DNA of 64,000 nt, from sequence record NC_048818.1; one strand, written 5' to 3'. Source of the stretch: Escherichia phage VEc33. The notes under the pieces were generated by a model. That model did not search any database and was not told the DNA's origin. It saw only the letters and a program-made list of their open reading frames with translations. Numbering within the stretch: position 1 is the stretch's first letter; every line of letters starts with the position of its first letter. Below are positions 8,174 through 41,371 of the stretch, piece after piece. The translations under genes were made by a program, and so were the position numbers.

Positions 8174-8386
8174 ATGATCCGCAACGTTTCTCTTGCTCGT
8201 TCGAAAGGCTTTAAGCTGGTGGATGTTAACACGTTCGAGCGGGAAGATTGTAAAATCGAATATGTAGCACGTAACAAAAATGCCTTTCGTGTTACCGAGA
8301 AAAAATTTGACAAGCGCGGCAACGTGATCGCTGAAACGGTTAAACACTTTGCCACCTTTTACGCTGCGTTTCGGGGAGTGTTATAA
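8174..8386 (+). CDS. hypothetical protein (70 aa)
   Basis: AAGGAG RBS; translationally coupled to neighbours. Confidence 0.5.
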   Translation: MIRNVSLARSKGFKLVDVNTFEREDCKIEYVARNKNAFRVTEKKFDKRGNVIAETVKHFATFYAAFRGVL

Positions 8387-8387
8387 A

Positions 8388-8732
8388 ATGGTTATTTATG
8401 AAGGCAATCGCTTTGTTGCTAATTGCCGTCCGGCATTATTAGCAAACTATTTAAATCAGCTTTCCCCAGCTTATAAGGGCGTTATTAATATTTATGAGGG
8501 CAAGGCGCATTATAAAATTAATGCGGTCGTTGCCCGTGAACTAGCGTTTCAATTTTTGACCTTTGCATCTTGTGACGTTCAGGTTATGGGTGAAGCATTA
8601 ATTGCAGAAAATGAAGATGATTTTATTAATATTTTCCGCAAGGTATGCACTGAGCGCCTAGTAATGAAAGGCGCGTATATTCAATCAACCGCTGACAGTA
8701 TTGAAACAGCGTTTCGAAAGGTGGCGCAATGA
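8388..8732 (+). CDS. hypothetical protein (114 aa from internal ATG with RBS)
   Basis: GGAG RBS before ATG 8388; the six-frame ORF begins at 8349. Confidence 0.5.
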   Translation: MVIYEGNRFVANCRPALLANYLNQLSPAYKGVINIYEGKAHYKINAVVARELAFQFLTFASCDVQVMGEALIAENEDDFINIFRKVCTERLVMKGAYIQSTADSIETAFRKVAQ

Positions 8733-32247: not shown

Positions 32248-32325
32248 TGGTGGATTGCCTGGGATTCGAACCCAGAACTGACGGATTAAAGGTCCGCTAC
32301 TCTTATCCAGTTGAGCTAGCAATCC
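32248..32325 (-). tRNA. tRNA-Lys (anticodon TTT)
   Basis: Anticodon loop CCTTTAA; D stem GCTC/GAGT; discriminator A. Confidence 0.6.
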
Positions 32326-32789
32326 AAATTCTCTACTAATAGTTTAAAAGCGTCTAACAGAGGTACTTCAAACCATTCTCCTGATACTTTGTAGTCTTTC
32401 AGAAGATTATGTAATGCTTTTTCAGTTCTTCTCTTGTCCGAGGAGAATCTAAAATGGTATAACTTGTAATCACGATAGGGCGAATATGTTTGATAACTAG
32501 ACAGTCTTTCATTTACGTCTACTGTCATACCTATCTTATAGAGTCCAGGCCACGCTGGGTTACCTATTACATATACAAACCCTTCTGTTATAGGGATTTT
32601 ATGCTCCCTTTTATACTTCAGTAAGTTTAACGCTGCCATTCTATAACAGAACTTAAACTCTGAGGATTTTAGTTTACCTTCTTTACCGGATATTTCGTTA
32701 TACTTCTCCATATACCTACGTATTAAGGAGTCAGTAATAGTAAAGTGCTTTGGAAGATCCAGGGCTTGAAGTACACGGTTAATAAGCAT
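32316..32789 (-). CDS. T5orf172-domain (GIY-YIG-like) endonuclease (157 aa)
   Basis: GFVYVIGNPAWPGLYKIGMT ... YKVSGEWF core; paralog of 34543..35061. Confidence 0.65.
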   Translation of the reverse strand: MLINRVLQALDLPKHFTITDSLIRRYMEKYNEISGKEGKLKSSEFKFCYRMAALNLLKYKREHKIPITEGFVYVIGNPAWPGLYKIGMTVDVNERLSSYQTYSPYRDYKLYHFRFSSDKRRTEKALHNLLKDYKVSGEWFEVPLLDAFKLLVENLDC

Positions 32790-32963
32790 AAACTTCCTTA
32801 ATAGAATGGACTTTTAAGTAAGAATGATTAATCCCAAACTCCGCCATTACTTCTTTTTCATCTTTTCCATAATGTGCAAGTAAGGATCTTGAGGTATTAT
32901 TACCTAAACGTTTGTCGCTTACTACTAATCGAAATACTTTCATTTCGAAATCCTCTATTAAAA

Positions 32964-33041
32964 TGGAAGCGGGTGCAGGAATCGAACCTACCTCTTTCTA
33001 GCTTATGAGACTAGCGATCTCTACCAGAGATCTAACCCGCA
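32964..33041 (-). tRNA. tRNA-Met/Ile2 (anticodon CAT)
   Basis: Anticodon stem CTAGT/GCTAG, loop CTCATAA; D stem GATC/GATC. Confidence 0.5.
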
Positions 33042-33047
33042 ATTGTT

Positions 33048-33125
33048 TGGTCTCCGTGGGAGGATTTGAACCCCCGACCCTATCGCCCCAAACGAAACGC
33101 TCTGGCCAAACTGAGCTACACGGAG
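33048..33125 (-). tRNA. tRNA-Pro (anticodon TGG)
   Basis: Anticodon loop TTTGGGG; D stem GCTC/GAGC; discriminator A. Confidence 0.55.
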
Positions 33126-33498
33126 AATATTATCTTTTTAACCACAGTAAAGATAAGCCTAGCATAGTGAATCCAGTACCTAATCCAATACATTTCTCTA
33201 TAAGAGTAAATGTATCTATGTTGAATGCTGTTATAACAATTGGGATACACCACAATAGCATAAAGACTTCGGCTATCTTATACTTCATTTAGCTTTCCTT
33301 CTCTTCACTTTATAAGATATATTATACAGAGAATTAAGTAAAATAGCAAATGAATTTTTAATAAATTTACTTATTGTGTAGGCCACCTGGAGGCTACCAA
33401 CCCCACGGCTGACAAAGAAGTTTGCGAGACCTCTCTTAAAAGCCAGAATAGACCCGCCGGTCTATCGGAACCTACATAATAAGTAAACTTTATAGTGT

Positions 33499-33619
33499 CA
33501 TTCTAGGCAGGATTCGAACCTGCTATCACTTGTGCGGACTTACGAGAACCATTCTTTCACTCGAATCGAACGAGCTTCTGCCCTAGCCAAGCTGGTTTCC
33601 CCATCAACCACGCTAGAAT
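33499..33619 (-). ncRNA. tRNA-like element with an approximately 45-nt insertion (unresolved)
   Basis: Acceptor-like ATTCTAG/CTAGAAT flanking a perfect T-arm GCAGG-TTCGAAT-CCTGC and D-arm TGGT...ACCA, but about 121 nt long with a second T-arm-like hairpin. Confidence 0.25.
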
Positions 33620-33741
33620 GTTAGATTGTTTTCAGTGCAAGAGTCCGAGTCTTGGACACGACCGCTTCGCAAGTACATAGGCAGCTTATCATGAGTCAGC
33701 ACTTCCGAATTGCTAGCTCCGTGTTCTGCACTGAAATTTTA

Positions 33742-34089
33742 TTAGTTTAACCGTAAAGTATTATCTACTTCACCATTAATTGTTCGGCATTCCTCTGGGA
33801 ATGCCGGGGTGGCTTTGTATTCCCACCACTCAGCACCATCATATTCCCCACGTTCTAGCCAAGTTCCATCGGCAAACCATACATTACCATAAAGTAATTG
33901 TCCACCGTATCCAGAATCATATTCAAAGTCTAGGTTATTAAGAAAATCCTCAATATCTTCTTCTGTATAACCTAAAGGTAATACCCAAACTTTTTTATCC
34001 CCATAATACCCAAATTCTATTTTAATACACTTAACTTCAGAATTAGTATTTTTTAAGGCAAGTAACAACTCTTCTTTGGCATTACGCAT
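33742..34089 (-). CDS. hypothetical protein (115 aa)
   Basis: ORF; Trp/Tyr/Gly-rich. Confidence 0.45.
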   Translation of the reverse strand: MRNAKEELLLALKNTNSEVKCIKIEFGYYGDKKVWVLPLGYTEEDIEDFLNNLDFEYDSGYGGQLLYGNVWFADGTWLERGEYDGAEWWEYKATPAFPEECRTINGEVDNTLRLN

Positions 34090-34114
34090 AGTATATTCTC
34101 ATACTGAATTAATT

Positions 34115-34488: not shown

Positions 34489-34566
34489 TGGCGGTTCCTG
34501 CTGGATTCGAACCAGCAACCCTCAACTTAACAAGATGCCGCTCTAACCAATTAGAGCTAAGGAACC
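34489..34566 (-). tRNA. tRNA-Asn (anticodon GTT), tentative
   Basis: Acceptor GGTTCCT/AGGAACC, T-arm GCTGG-TTCGAAT-CCAGC, loop TTGTTAA; anticodon stem poorly paired. Confidence 0.4.
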
Positions 34567-35061
34567 ATATAAGTCAGAACTAGAGTTAATACGTTCTAGA
34601 TATTTACTAAGATCTCTAGAATTTATACTAAACCACTCATGCTCTTTTAAATCTTTGAAATACCGGTGAATTAGTTTTTCACCTTTTCGTTTGTCAAACC
34701 AAAAAGACCAGTGCTCTAACTTATAATCCCTATAAGGGGAATAAGTCTGATATTGAGCTAATCTCTCTTTTGGATTTTGACTCATACCTATTTTATACTG
34801 ATTTTTCCATGCAGGATTACTAATACAGTATACAAAACCTTCAGAAATAGGAAGTTTATTTTCCTGCTTAAACTTTATAAAGGAAAGTGCAGCAAGTTTT
34901 CTCGAATACATAGTATTCGTATTCTTTTTGGTATTACCATTGGTTCCTGAAAGATTTATATATTCTTCCATAAATCTTTGGATTAGTTCTGCGGTTATAT
35001 AGAAGGGCTCATTAGTAACAACGCCTTTCTTTACCAAACTATCAAAAACTTTTGTATGCAC
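34543..35061 (-). CDS. T5orf172-domain (GIY-YIG-like) endonuclease (172 aa)
   Basis: GFVYCISNPAWKNQYKIGMS ... EHEWF core; 172 aa, the namesake size of the T5orf172 domain; 3' end overlaps the tRNA. Confidence 0.65.
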   Translation of the reverse strand: MHTKVFDSLVKKGVVTNEPFYITAELIQRFMEEYINLSGTNGNTKKNTNTMYSRKLAALSFIKFKQENKLPISEGFVYCISNPAWKNQYKIGMSQNPKERLAQYQTYSPYRDYKLEHWSFWFDKRKGEKLIHRYFKDLKEHEWFSINSRDLSKYLERINSSSDLYGSLALIG

Positions 35062-35597: not shown

Positions 35598-35674
35598 TGG
35601 CAAACCTACTAGGACTCGAACCTAGACCGTACGGTTTTAGAGACCGACATGCTGTCCAGTAACACTCTAGGAAT
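35598..35674 (-). tRNA. Trp-like tRNA with anticodon CTA (reads UAG), candidate amber suppressor
   Basis: T-arm CTAGG-TTCGAGT-CCTAG and discriminator G as in E. coli tRNA-Trp; anticodon arm TCGGT-CTCTAAA-ACCGT differs from the Trp loop CTCCAAA by one base; acceptor stem has two U-U mismatches. Confidence 0.4.
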
Positions 35675-37025: not shown

Positions 37026-37103
37026 TGGTGGCTCCCCGAGGATTCGAACCTACGTACCTTCCGGTTATGAGCCGGGTGCTCATACCATATGAGCTTGAGA
37101 ACC
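37026..37103 (-). tRNA. tRNA-Met/fMet (anticodon CAT)
   Basis: Anticodon loop CTCATAA with a G-C-rich stem; third CAT tRNA in the cluster. Confidence 0.45.
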
Positions 37104-41299: not shown

Positions 41300-41371
41300 T
41301 ACCGACCGTAGGATTCGAACCTACATCTTCCACCAGTTACGGCTTGATAATACCAATTATACTAGGACGGC
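41300..41371 (-). ncRNA. tRNA-like element (acceptor and T-arm present, anticodon arm not foldable)
   Basis: Perfect T-arm GTAGG-TTCGAAT-CCTAC and acceptor-like GCCGTCC/GGTCGGT; no CCA; sits in an 840-bp ORF-free region. Confidence 0.25.

What the first reader, a model, noticed from the sequence alone, without database searches (positions are those of the whole stretch)
33360..33740. ORF-free stretch with an over-long tRNA-like structure and a second structured element
33499-33619 has a perfect T-arm (GCAGG-TTCGAAT-CCTGC), a D-arm and a matching acceptor pair (ATTCTAG/CTAGAAT) but is about 121 nt long with an internal second T-arm-like hairpin, so it is not a canonical tRNA. It could be a tRNA with an insertion, a fused or decayed tandem pair, or a stable small RNA. 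33641-33735 is bounded by the inverted repeat TTCAGTGCA...TGCACTGAA enclosing hairpins.
Basis: seen in the sequence. Interest (0 to 1): 0.5.

Follow-up and report, generated by a model that had tools for sequence, protein, structure and literature searches.

The report
Phage T5 tRNA-like stable RNAs
The over-long "tRNA" is the long-annotated but functionally unexplained RNA2 of phage T5: a tRNA whose anticodon loop is replaced by a conserved ~54-nt structured module. It sits between a second known stable RNA (RNAIV) and an unannotated conserved element.

Summary
The window is a close relative of phage T5 (97-98% identity here), with 23 tRNA genes on the minus strand. It coincides with the GenBank feature rna2 of T5 and BF23, "tRNA-like stable RNA with unknown functions" (window 33620..33496, minus strand).

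Thirty-three homologues support a tRNA scaffold of an 8-bp acceptor stem, D arm, T arm and 4-6 bp anticodon stem. In place of the anticodon loop is a ~54-nt module: a bulged helix, a second genuine T-arm hairpin and a near-invariant single strand. 93% of cells are paired, against 24-44% in slid controls, and 24 of 32 pairs show double-sided changes.

The module also occurs in T4-like Acinetobacter phages and in metagenomic contigs, on otherwise dissimilar scaffolds. No Rfam family matches, and ARAGORN calls it only in relaxed intron mode. It cannot decode.

My best guess is a natural "tRNA scaffold" that displays a ligand or decoy module. That function is inferred, not shown.

It is unannotated and 94.5% or more identical in 218 phage records, but its fold is not statistically supported.

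The parts
33496..33620 (-). RNA2: tRNA-like stable RNA (125 nt as annotated in T5), a tRNA scaffold carrying a module in place of the anticodon loop
   Evidence: Maps onto the rna2 misc_RNA of AY543070, AY692264 and AJ604530. Model R1 scores 152 bits. Covariation.
33613..33620 (-). Acceptor stem, 5' strand (C-1 plus AUUCUAG)
   Evidence: 8 pairs, all with double-sided changes in homologues. The -1:73 pair is C-G in 26 sequences and U-A in 2.
33499..33506 (-). Acceptor stem, 3' strand (CUAGAAU plus G73). It is followed by ACA (33498..33496) where KKP_3711, AAS21, KEY and L042 encode CCA.
33593..33610 (-). D arm (UGGU / ACCA, loop UGAUGGGGAA)
   Evidence: 4 of 4 pairs with double-sided changes; 93% of cells paired.
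33588..33591 (-). Anticodon-stem equivalent, 5' strand (CUUG)
   Evidence: 99.2% of cells paired; 4 of 4 pairs covary, e.g. CUUG/CAAG, CCUC/GAGG, CCACA/UGUGG, GACCA/UGGUC.
33529..33532 (-). Anticodon-stem equivalent, 3' strand (CAAG)
33533..33587 (-). Conserved ~54-nt module replacing the 7-nt anticodon loop. It holds helix Pa (GGGC/GUCC), a UAA bulge, helix Pb, the inner T arm and the single strand.
   Evidence: Mean identity is 0.76 in the module against 0.45 in the scaffold across 10 lineages. The Pa outer pair is C-G in 21 sequences and U-A in 9. The Pb pair is A-U 27, U-A 3, C-G 2, G-C 1.
33560..33574 (-). Inner (second) T-arm hairpin CUCG-UUCGAUU-CGAG
   Evidence: 100% of cells paired and 3 of 4 pairs covary, with G53-C61 invariant. 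Loop positions U54 U55 C56 R57 A58 are kept, and changes fall only at positions 57, 59 and 60.
33546..33559 (-). Near-invariant single strand UGAAAGAAUGGUUC, containing the GG that could dock on the inner T loop
   Evidence: Invariant in alignment A1. AAUGGU is retained even in the divergent KKP_3711 copy. The docking is inferred.
33507..33523 (-). Outer T arm GCAGG-UUCGAAU-CCUGC
   Evidence: 98.8% of cells paired; 3 of 5 pairs covary.
33375..33477 (-). RNAIV: second annotated stable RNA, a four-way junction with three hairpins. The loop of the middle hairpin, CUCGCAA, is invariant.
   Evidence: rnaIV misc_RNA in T5 and BF23. Consensus of 44 pairs, 10 with compensatory changes.
33362..33490 (-). 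Extended closing stem around RNAIV (UUUACUUAUU.../...AAUAAGUAAA). The annotated RNA ends lie inside it, so it may be a processing stem or end-of-operon stem.
   Evidence: MFE -53 kcal/mol, z = -5.8, 0 of 200 shuffles as stable. Its role in processing or termination is inferred.
33631..33735 (-). Element A: unannotated conserved 105-nt element closed by UUCAGUGCA/UGCACUGAA, lying directly 5' of RNA2. The strand is assumed from the direction of transcription.
   Evidence: 218 phage records at 94.5% identity or more. No feature in the T5 or BF23 records. Fold z = -1.42. No covariation is available. No Rfam hit.
33321..33349 (-). Promoter P13a (TTGCTA, 17 nt spacer, TATAAT), which starts the next unit (small membrane ORF, tRNA-Pro, tRNA-fMet)
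   Evidence: Consensus scan, 10 of 12 matches. Annotated as promoter P13a in T5 and BF23.
33742..34089 (-). Upstream ORF (115 aa, homologue of T5.067). Element A begins right after its stop codon.
   Evidence: No Pfam domain.

Best explanation
The feature is the RNA2 gene of a T5-like phage. It is a non-decoding, tRNA-derived stable RNA, transcribed on the minus strand as part of the early tRNA operon.

Shown: it keeps an 8-bp acceptor stem, D arm, T arm and a 4-6 bp anticodon stem. The 7-nt anticodon loop is replaced by a conserved ~54-nt module. The module consists of a helix interrupted by an invariant UAA bulge, a second bona fide T-arm hairpin, and a near-invariant 14-nt single strand containing GG.

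Inferred mechanism: the tRNA part works as a natural 'tRNA scaffold'. It lets host tRNA-processing enzymes (RNase P, 3' trimming and CCA addition) cut the RNA out of the polycistronic transcript and keeps it stable.

Also inferred: the module is the working part. It probably folds into a second tRNA-like elbow (inner T loop docked on the conserved GG) at the end of the anticodon arm, and binds a factor that normally recognises tRNA. The RNA would then act as a decoy, sponge or adaptor rather than in decoding.

RNAIV (downstream) and element A (upstream) are separate products or parts of the same precursor.
For: Identity: 97-98% identical to T5 and colinear with the annotated rna2 and rnaIV features.

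tRNA scaffold: model R1 aligns ordinary tRNAs end to end at 20-38 bits, with the module deleted. After in-silico excision of the module, ARAGORN at default settings calls the remainder a tRNA in the window, T5, L046 and L042. An encoded 3' CCA is present in KKP_3711, AAS21, KEY and L042.

Structure: 93.4% of 1050 cells are paired, against 24-44% when partners are slid. 24 of 32 pairs show double-sided changes, and 0 of 500 shuffles reach any measure.

The module is the constrained part: identity is 0.76 against 0.45 for the scaffold across 10 lineages. It is found on unrelated scaffolds in Straboviridae Acinetobacter phages 133 and Acj9, in the unclassified phage W16, in Serratia, Pantoea and Erwinia Demerecviridae, and in metagenome contigs.

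Not a decoder: there is no 7-nt anticodon loop, the acceptor identity is not conserved, no tRNA or tmRNA is called, and no Rfam family matches any homologue.

Scaffold principle: engineered tRNA scaffolds that keep the acceptor, T and D arms and replace the anticodon stem-loop are processed and stable in E. coli (PMC3753655).

Context: T5 tRNA-region products are known to counter tRNA-targeting defences (titles and abstracts of PMC11464382, PMC11555353 and PMC10264068).
Against: No expression, end-mapping or binding data were available here. 'Stable RNA' rests on the GenBank annotation only, because the primary papers are not in the searchable library.

The binding partner is unknown, and the second-elbow fold is a model, not a test.

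Most distant homologues were retrieved with a pattern taken from the module. This inflates its apparent invariance. The BLAST-found KKP_3711 copy has a more divergent module (0.67) than scaffold (0.85).

The Acinetobacter copies have a degenerate acceptor and D region, so the scaffold argument is weaker there.

Thermodynamic stability of RNA2 alone is unremarkable, z = -1.09.
Confidence: 0.55

Rival explanations
1. Intron-containing (or insertion-carrying) tRNA. The ~48-nt module would be removed to give a functional tRNA-Arg(CCG), or tRNA-Trp(CCA) in other phages. Alternatively the module is a small mobile insertion that targets tRNA anticodon loops.
For: ARAGORN with intron mode and lowered threshold calls tRNA-Arg(ccg) with a 48-nt intron at position 34. 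Excising the module gives default-threshold tRNA calls in 4 lineages, with anticodons CCG or CCA. Scaffolds differ greatly while the module is conserved. The KKP_3711 annotation and ARAGORN call part of it tRNA-Arg(ccg).
Against: The putative loop U-CCG-C-A / U-CCA-U-A has a pyrimidine at position 37. Its CC is paired in helix Pa, whose outer pair covaries.

The 'anticodon' assigned depends on where one cuts.

No group I intron or other ribozyme family matches. No bulge-helix-bulge motif forms, by my reading of the alignment. No splicing enzyme is known for such an element in E. coli (established knowledge).

SB9, Kamaji and the Acinetobacter forms are not recognised as tRNAs even after excision. 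No 'empty-site' parent tRNA was found among the 274 distinct tRNAs held. T5 and BF23 records describe the full-length 125-nt RNA as the product.
Confidence: 0.08
2. A tmRNA-like or otherwise aminoacylated non-decoding tRNA that acts on the ribosome (rescue or release), or that donates an amino acid outside translation.
For: An intact acceptor/T domain, with encoded CCA in several lineages. The Kamaji copy has G3.U70 with A73, the alanine identity shared by tmRNA (with established knowledge). In Acinetobacter phage W16 the homologue lies directly upstream of a 76-aa RF-1-domain protein.
Against: Acceptor-stem sequence and discriminator are not conserved: A1-U72/G73 in T5, G3.U70/A73 only in Kamaji. 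No conserved reading frame exists in the module; the 8-codon frame seen in T5-likes runs on without a stop in L042 and phage 133 (my reading sequences). ARAGORN tmRNA mode and the Rfam tmRNA families find nothing. The RF-1 neighbour is lineage-specific and lacks the GGQ motif.
Confidence: 0.07
3. A cis-acting element rather than a trans-acting RNA. It would be a tRNA-like punctuation or processing signal for the polycistronic early transcript, or a DNA-level target conserved because of the homing endonucleases that populate this region.
For: It lies inside an operon of tRNAs, small ORFs and T5orf172/HNH genes. tRNA-like punctuation is a known principle (established knowledge). Element A and the RNAIV stem look like processing substrates.
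Against: Compensatory changes in seven helices show selection on the RNA fold, not on DNA sequence. A processing signal would not need a near-invariant ~54-nt module shared between two phage families and placed in unrelated neighbourhoods.
Confidence: 0.1
4. Decayed or fused tandem tRNA genes (a pseudogene) with no function.
For: Two T-arm-like hairpins in one 121-nt unit. Default predictors fail.
Against: All helices covary and the inner region is the most conserved part. It is retained in more than 400 phage records and across families. The inner hairpin has no accompanying D, anticodon or acceptor elements of a second tRNA.
Confidence: 0.03

Closest known systems
Phage T5 / BF23 RNA2 (GenBank misc_RNA rna2; AY543070, AY692264, AJ604530)
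   Same: Same locus, same strand, same neighbours (T5.067 homologue upstream; RNAIV and promoter P13a downstream). About 97% identical.
   Different: A few substitutions, e.g. G26 against A26, and U3-A70 here against U3.G70 in T5. The records give no structure or function beyond 'tRNA-like'.
Phage T5 / BF23 RNAIV
   Same: Window 33477..33375 maps onto the annotated rnaIV, a 'stable RNA with unknown functions'.
   Different: Shown here to be a covarying four-way junction with an invariant CUCGCAA loop.
Phage T4 RNAC / RNAD (species 1 and 2 RNAs)
   Same: Small stable RNAs of 119-139 nt encoded at the end of a phage tRNA cluster. RNAC carries a T arm. Their biological roles are unknown (PMC3014915; PMC9697503).
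   Different: No detectable sequence relationship. The RNA2 model gives only 20 bits on rnaC, the level of a generic tRNA-like match, and nothing on rnaD. T4 lacks the module.
Engineered 'tRNA scaffold' RNAs (Ponchon and Dardel)
   Same: Acceptor, D and T arms are kept and the anticodon stem-loop is replaced by a structured insert. Such chimeras are processed and accumulate stably in E. coli (PMC3753655).
   Different: That system is man-made. RNA2 would be a natural counterpart with an evolutionarily conserved insert of unknown ligand.
tmRNA (SsrA)
   Same: A tRNA-like acceptor/T domain joined to a large non-tRNA insert. The Kamaji copy has G3.U70/A73.
   Different: RNA2 keeps a D stem and an anticodon stem. 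It has no tag ORF and no pseudoknots, its acceptor identity is not conserved, and tmRNA finders do not recognise it.
Bacterial and phage Y-RNA-like tRNA mimics (YrlA)
   Same: Non-coding RNAs that embed T-arm and D-arm mimicry to engage host RNA-handling proteins (from memory, not tested beyond Rfam).
   Different: In YrlA the ends form the Ro-binding stem and the tRNA-like part is internal. Here the ends form a true acceptor stem and the extra T arm is internal. No Rfam family of any kind matched.

Membership tests
T5 RNA2 (annotated stable RNA of Tequintavirus) | Sequence identity and colinearity with the annotated rna2 feature | tested here: met
   501 of 501 nt aligned at 97.4% to AY543070. 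rna2 at 32959-33083 maps to window 33496-33620. The same holds in BF23.
T5 RNA2 (annotated stable RNA of Tequintavirus) | Accumulates as a discrete stable RNA in infected cells | not testable with these tools
   Only the record's note 'stable RNA' is available. The primary literature is not in the library.
Canonical tRNA (Rfam RF00005 / ARAGORN) | Cloverleaf with acceptor, D and T arms | tested here: met
   Covarying acceptor, D, anticodon-stem and T helices. Model R1 cross-matches real tRNAs end to end.
Canonical tRNA (Rfam RF00005 / ARAGORN) | 7-nt anticodon loop (U33, purine 37) and a length of about 70-95 nt; reaches the family threshold | tested here: not met
   The loop is replaced by about 54 nt. 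There is no RF00005 hit even at E<=10, and no ARAGORN call at default settings.
Intron-containing tRNA (group I intron or bulge-helix-bulge intron) | A recognisable intron class, and exons that join into a canonical anticodon loop | tested here: not met
   No intron or ribozyme family in Rfam. At 48 nt it is far below group I size. The only 'loop' obtainable has C or U at position 37 and is paired in helix Pa.
Intron-containing tRNA (group I intron or bulge-helix-bulge intron) | A spliced product exists | not testable with these tools
   Needs tRNA-seq or a northern blot.
tmRNA | tRNA-Ala-like acceptor (G3.U70), tag reading frame with resume codon, pseudoknots | tested here: not met
   ARAGORN tmRNA search and the Rfam tmRNA families are negative. 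G3.U70 occurs only in Kamaji. There is no conserved ORF (sequences).
T4 RNAC/RNAD | Sequence or structure homology to T4 rnaC or rnaD | tested here: not met
   R1 gives 20.2 bits (E 0.007) on part of rnaC, the same level as generic tRNAs, and nothing on rnaD.
RNA2-module family (defined here) | Bulged helix Pa-UAA-Pb, an inner T-arm hairpin with a UUCRAYU loop, and the ...AAUGGU...CGUAA..CC motif, inserted at the anticodon-loop position | tested here: met
   All are present in the window copy, with 33 homologues aligned.

The most novel reading that the evidence does not exclude
The ~54-nt module may be an autonomous functional RNA domain: a second tRNA-like elbow on a bulged helix. Phages of at least two unrelated families (Demerecviridae and T4-like Straboviridae) would display it on interchangeable tRNA scaffolds. 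Its purpose would be to capture a host factor that recognises tRNA shape, for example a tRNA-targeting immune nuclease, RNase P, or a T-arm modifying enzyme. That would make it a natural RNA decoy built on the same principle as the laboratory 'tRNA scaffold'. A more radical variant, that the module is a small mobile or excisable insertion in CCN-anticodon tRNAs, is also not fully excluded.
Probability: 0.25. Interest if true: 0.65.

Novelty: already known. Interest (0 to 1): 0.35.

Why it matters
T5's tRNA region has recently become important because individual T5 tRNAs neutralise tRNA-cleaving defence systems (PARIS, retron Eco7). The non-canonical RNAs in the same operon (RNA2, RNA3, RNA2H, RNAIV) have sat in GenBank as 'unknown function' and are ignored by modern annotation. 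Most of the more than 400 related phage records leave RNA2 blank, place spurious ORFs over it, or call it tRNA-Arg.

RNA2 turns out to be a covarying tRNA scaffold carrying a module conserved across two phage families. This gives a concrete, testable object: delete or mutate the module, then pull down its partner. If the partner is a defence or translation factor, this would be a new class of phage RNA decoy. If not, the finding is simply a correct re-identification of a known gene.

Tried and rejected
- Rfam was run at gathering threshold on the whole window, at E<=10 on 33130-34110, and at E<=0.1 on six homologous loci. Nothing but ordinary tRNAs matched, so there is no tmRNA, Y-RNA-like, ribozyme, intron or riboswitch hit.
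- ARAGORN at default settings and in tmRNA mode found nothing. Only relaxed intron mode gives 'tRNA-Arg(ccg), 48-nt intron'. I regard this as a scaffold detection, not evidence of splicing.
- I looked for an alternative '5' tRNA' fold that uses the inner T arm and AGAAU as the acceptor 3' strand. It is possible in T5-likes, but the complementarity is absent in Kamaji, L042 and L046, so I rejected it (sequences).
- A mini-ORF in the module (AUG GUU CUC GUA ...) is not conserved outside T5-likes, so I rejected it.
- I noticed a resemblance of the module to the 23S GTPase-associated centre (AGAAGC...AAAGAA...CGUAA). AGAAGC is not conserved in the family and the structural contexts differ, so I rejected it (recalled sequence, not tested).
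- I searched for a host homologue or a complementary target. BLAST of RNA2 and of element A against 5,426 E. coli genomes gave no match.
Nothing scored above generic tRNA similarity.
- I looked for a conserved protein neighbour. There is none. The RF-1-domain ORF is specific to W16-like phages, and the other neighbours have no Pfam domain.
- Element A has no covariation because its sequences are too similar, and its folding z-score is not significant. For a 29-aa GTG ORF I counted by hand about 5 synonymous and about 6 non-synonymous differences, with a poor ribosome-binding site, so the ORF question is inconclusive.
- Literature searches for the original T5 stable-RNA papers found nothing in the held library.
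Full report
**What the window is.** BLAST of 33300-33800 against phage genomes gives 463 records, with T5 and its relatives at 97-98% identity over the full length. ARAGORN finds 23 tRNA genes, all on the minus strand, between 28.9 and 40.8 kb. Rfam finds the same array plus two more tRNA matches. The finding lies inside the well-known tRNA region of a Tequintavirus.

**Checking the observation.** Read on the minus strand, the tRNA-like element runs 5'-C AUUCUAG CG UGGU UGAUGGGGAA ACCA G CUUG ... CAAG UGAUA GCAGG UUCGAAU CCUGC CUAGAAU G ACA-3'.

- Only mechanical ORFs of 29-33 aa overlap the stretch.
- A 9-10 bp inverted repeat at that spacing is expected by chance several times in 64 kb (my arithmetic). 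The fold of the element is not unusual, z = -1.42.

**What is already annotated.** In the T5 record AY543070 and the st0 record AY692264, the stretch equivalent to window 33620..33496 is misc_RNA rna2, 'tRNA-like stable RNA with unknown functions'. Window 33477..33375 is rnaIV, 'stable RNA with unknown functions', and promoter P13a follows.

- The BF23 tRNA-region record AJ604530 carries the same two features.
- A third T5 record, AY587007, annotates neither.
- Most of the more than 400 other T5-like records show nothing, spurious 'hypothetical proteins', or in one case a partial 'tRNA-Arg(ccg)' over RNA2.

**Predictors.** Default ARAGORN (tRNA plus tmRNA) and Rfam at gathering threshold call nothing in 33130-34110. 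Rfam at E<=10 returns one meaningless lncRNA match. ARAGORN with introns allowed and a lowered threshold returns 'tRNA-Arg(ccg), intron of 48 nt at position 34' on exactly 33499-33619. The predictors therefore do not resolve the element into ordinary tRNAs.

**Homologues.** Besides the T5-like group, BLAST and pattern scans found copies in several places.

- Epseptimaviruses: SB9, mar003J3 and TrudiGerster.
- Enterobacter phage KKP_3711.
- Pantoea phage AAS21 and Erwinia phage KEY.
- Serratia phages Kamaji and Slocum.
- T4-like Acinetobacter phages 133 and Acj9 (Straboviridae) and the unclassified 167-kb phage W16. In phage 133 the copy lies in an unannotated gap next to or inside the tRNA array.
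- Two metagenome contigs (L042, L046) and a 167-kb contig binned as 'bacterium' (L048).

Wherever enough flank is held, the element sits among tRNA genes.

**Structure.** I wrote a structure on the window copy, built covariance model R1 from 29 distinct sequences, and realigned 33 homologues to it. On that alignment 93.4% of 1050 cells form standard pairs, against 24-44% when 3' partners are slid by 1-3 columns. 24 of 32 pairs have changes on both sides, and none of 500 shuffles reaches any observed measure. The MAFFT alignment, which was not fitted to the structure, already gave 90.6% against 28-44%.

Per helix:

| Helix | Cells paired | Pairs covarying |
|---|---|---|
| Acceptor (8 bp) | 92% | all 8, including the -1:73 pair (C-G 26, U-A 2) |
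| D stem | 93% | 4 of 4 |
| Anticodon stem | 99% | 4 of 4 |
| Inner T hairpin | 100% | 3 of 4, with G53-C61 invariant |
| Outer T arm | 99% | 3 of 5 |
| Helix Pa (GGGC/GUCC) | 95% | outer pair switches C-G (21) to U-A (9) |
| Helix Pb | 71% | one pair switches among A-U, U-A, C-G and G-C with no exceptions |

- Pa and Pb are separated by an invariant UAA bulge.
- The inner loop keeps the T-loop signature U54 U55 C56 R57 A58; its variants touch only positions 57, 59 and 60.
- After the inner loop comes the 14-nt strand UGAAAGAAUGGUUC, invariant in alignment A1. Its AAUGGU core survives even in the divergent KKP_3711 copy.

**It is a tRNA scaffold.**

- R1 matches ordinary tRNAs end to end (model positions 1-128) at 20-38 bits, treating the module as a deletion.
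- When I excise the module in silico, default ARAGORN calls the remainder a tRNA in the window, T5, L046 and L042.
- KKP_3711, AAS21, KEY and L042 encode a 3' CCA after the discriminator. T5-likes have ACA.
- There is no 7-nt anticodon loop, and the acceptor sequences and discriminators differ freely between lineages (AUUCUAG../G, AGACAAU../A, GGGUACU../A, GGUCAU../G). No aminoacylation identity or decoding function is conserved.
- Across 10 lineages the module is 76% identical on average and the scaffold 45%.
- That contrast is inflated, because most distant copies were fetched with a motif from the module. The BLAST-found KKP_3711 copy shows the opposite trend (0.67 against 0.85).

**Interpretation.** The shown facts are identity with T5 RNA2, a tRNA scaffold, a covarying structured module in place of the anticodon loop, and conservation across two phage families. 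The inference starts from the observation that selection acts on the shape of the scaffold but on the sequence of the module.

This is the design of laboratory 'tRNA scaffold' chimeras. Those keep the acceptor, D and T arms so that E. coli processes and stabilises the RNA, and they present an insert at the anticodon position (PMC3753655).

I therefore think RNA2 is cut from the early polycistronic transcript by tRNA-processing enzymes and persists because it looks like a tRNA. Its module would form a second elbow (inner T loop plus the conserved GG) and would be the ligand for some tRNA-recognising factor.

Individual T5 tRNAs are known to neutralise PARIS and retron Eco7, and phage tRNAs in general are thought to evade anticodon nucleases (titles and abstracts). 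A decoy or anti-defence role is therefore attractive, but nothing here tests it.

**Rivals.**

- Splicing to tRNA-Arg(CCG) or tRNA-Trp(CCA) is suggested by ARAGORN's relaxed call and by the UCCGCA/UCCAUA motif just 5' of the anticodon-stem 3' strand. Against it: that motif has a pyrimidine at position 37, its CC is part of covarying helix Pa, no intron class matches, no splicing machinery is known, several lineages are not tRNA-like even after excision, and no insertion-free parent tRNA was found.
- A tmRNA-like role is hinted at by G3.U70/A73 in Kamaji and by a GGQ-less RF-1-domain ORF next to the W16 copy. Both are lineage-specific, and there is no conserved reading frame.
- A pseudogene or fused tandem pair is excluded by the covariation.
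- A purely cis or DNA-level role does not explain the covariation, or the conservation of the module in unrelated neighbourhoods.

**RNAIV.** Thirty distinct sequences, down to 74% identity, give a 44-pair consensus with 10 compensatory pairs. It has a long closing stem and three hairpins, i.e. a four-way junction.

- The middle hairpin's 7-nt loop CUCGCAA is invariant and has the CU-NNN-AA form of an anticodon loop. ARAGORN's mitochondrial mode even calls 'Ala(cgc)' there.
- The annotated RNA ends fall inside a longer duplex, UUUACUUAUU/AAUAAGUAAA. This suggests, by inference, double-strand-specific processing or an end-of-operon stem just before promoter P13a.

**Element A.** It occurs in 218 records, never below 94.5% identity. 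It is more conserved than RNA2 or RNAIV in the same genomes: SB9 is 97% in A against 78% in RNAIV.

- It always lies directly 5' of RNA2, but it is absent from about half of the RNA2-bearing phages, where a tRNA-Lys(CUU) abuts RNA2.
- It follows either the T5.067 stop codon or a tRNA-like 3' CCA, so it is independent of the ORF.
- There is too little variation for covariation, no Rfam match and no E. coli homologue.
- Its nature is unresolved: a separate small RNA, a leader of RNA2, or, less likely, a 29-aa ORF.

**Comparison with known systems.** The closest known object is T5 RNA2 itself. The closest analogues are T4 RNAC and RNAD, whose roles are also unknown (PMC3014915, PMC9697503) and which are not homologous by my model. 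tmRNA, Y-RNA-like tRNA mimics and intron-containing tRNAs share single features but fail their defining tests.

**Verdict.** The object, however, has been annotated in GenBank for two decades as a stable RNA of unknown function. What this analysis adds is a covariation-supported architecture, the recognition that the conserved unit is the anticodon-loop module, its presence in T4-like Acinetobacter phages, and the flagging of an unannotated conserved neighbour. Function remains inferred.

Noticed in passing
window 35598-35674 (-): ARAGORN calls a tRNA with anticodon CUA (amber-suppressor type, labelled 'Pyl') between tRNA-Phe and tRNA-Glu, with loop CUCUAAA. T5 has tRNA-Trp(CCA) at the same position, and the two sequences differ widely. 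CUA tRNAs also occur in the Acinetobacter-phage loci and in L048, where one lies directly upstream of the RNA2 homologue.
   Followed up: partly
window 37029-37103 (-) and 41300-41371 (-): Two Rfam tRNA matches (40.3 and 35.5 bits) that ARAGORN does not call.
   Followed up: no
window 32316-32789 (-): A 157-aa ORF with MUG113/T5orf172 domains (GIY-YIG-like), a paralogue of the ORF at 34543-35061. It sits between tRNA-Lys and the T5.065 homologue, where T5 has no such gene, so it looks like an insertion of about 450 bp. It overlaps the 5' end of tRNA-Lys by 10 nt.
   Followed up: partly
L034 502-732 (= L036 2797-3027, Acinetobacter phage W16): A 76-aa RF-1-domain protein (Pfam 40.5 bits) in which the catalytic GGQ is replaced by GKHSNW. 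It is encoded immediately downstream of the RNA2 homologue. This adjacency was not seen in other lineages.
   Followed up: partly
L046 7173-7225 (-): A 53-nt stretch matching bacterial 23S rRNA model positions 331-383 (32.5 bits, E 1e-6, below gathering threshold), directly downstream of the RNA2 homologue in a metagenomic contig.
   Followed up: no
L004 505-600 and 925-1030 (Salmonella phage SB9); L049 equivalents: Epseptimaviruses carry two further unannotated structured elements in this block. One is an ~88-nt tRNA-like RNA ending in CCA, just upstream of element A. The other is a ~100-nt element between tRNA-Gly(GCC) and RNAIV, which also gives a weak R1 hit in L013 at 8288-8392.
   Followed up: no
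window ~33683-33688 (-), element A; L049 ~645-652: In phage TrudiGerster three substitutions turn the palindrome UCAUGA inside element A into CGCGCG, so palindromy is preserved. This could point to a kissing or dimerisation loop or to a protein or DNA site.
   Followed up: no
L009 3830-3947 (-), L036 7010-7116 (-), L048 7352-7452 (-): Further over-long (101-118 nt) tRNA-like matches to model R1 in T4-like Acinetobacter phage tRNA arrays. These may be other tRNAs with insertions or long arms.
   Followed up: no
window 33389-33445 (-), RNAIV hairpin 2: The invariant RNAIV loop CUCGCAA and the RNA2 module segment UCUCGUAA share the motif UCUCGYAA. This may be coincidence or a common recognition element.
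   Followed up: no
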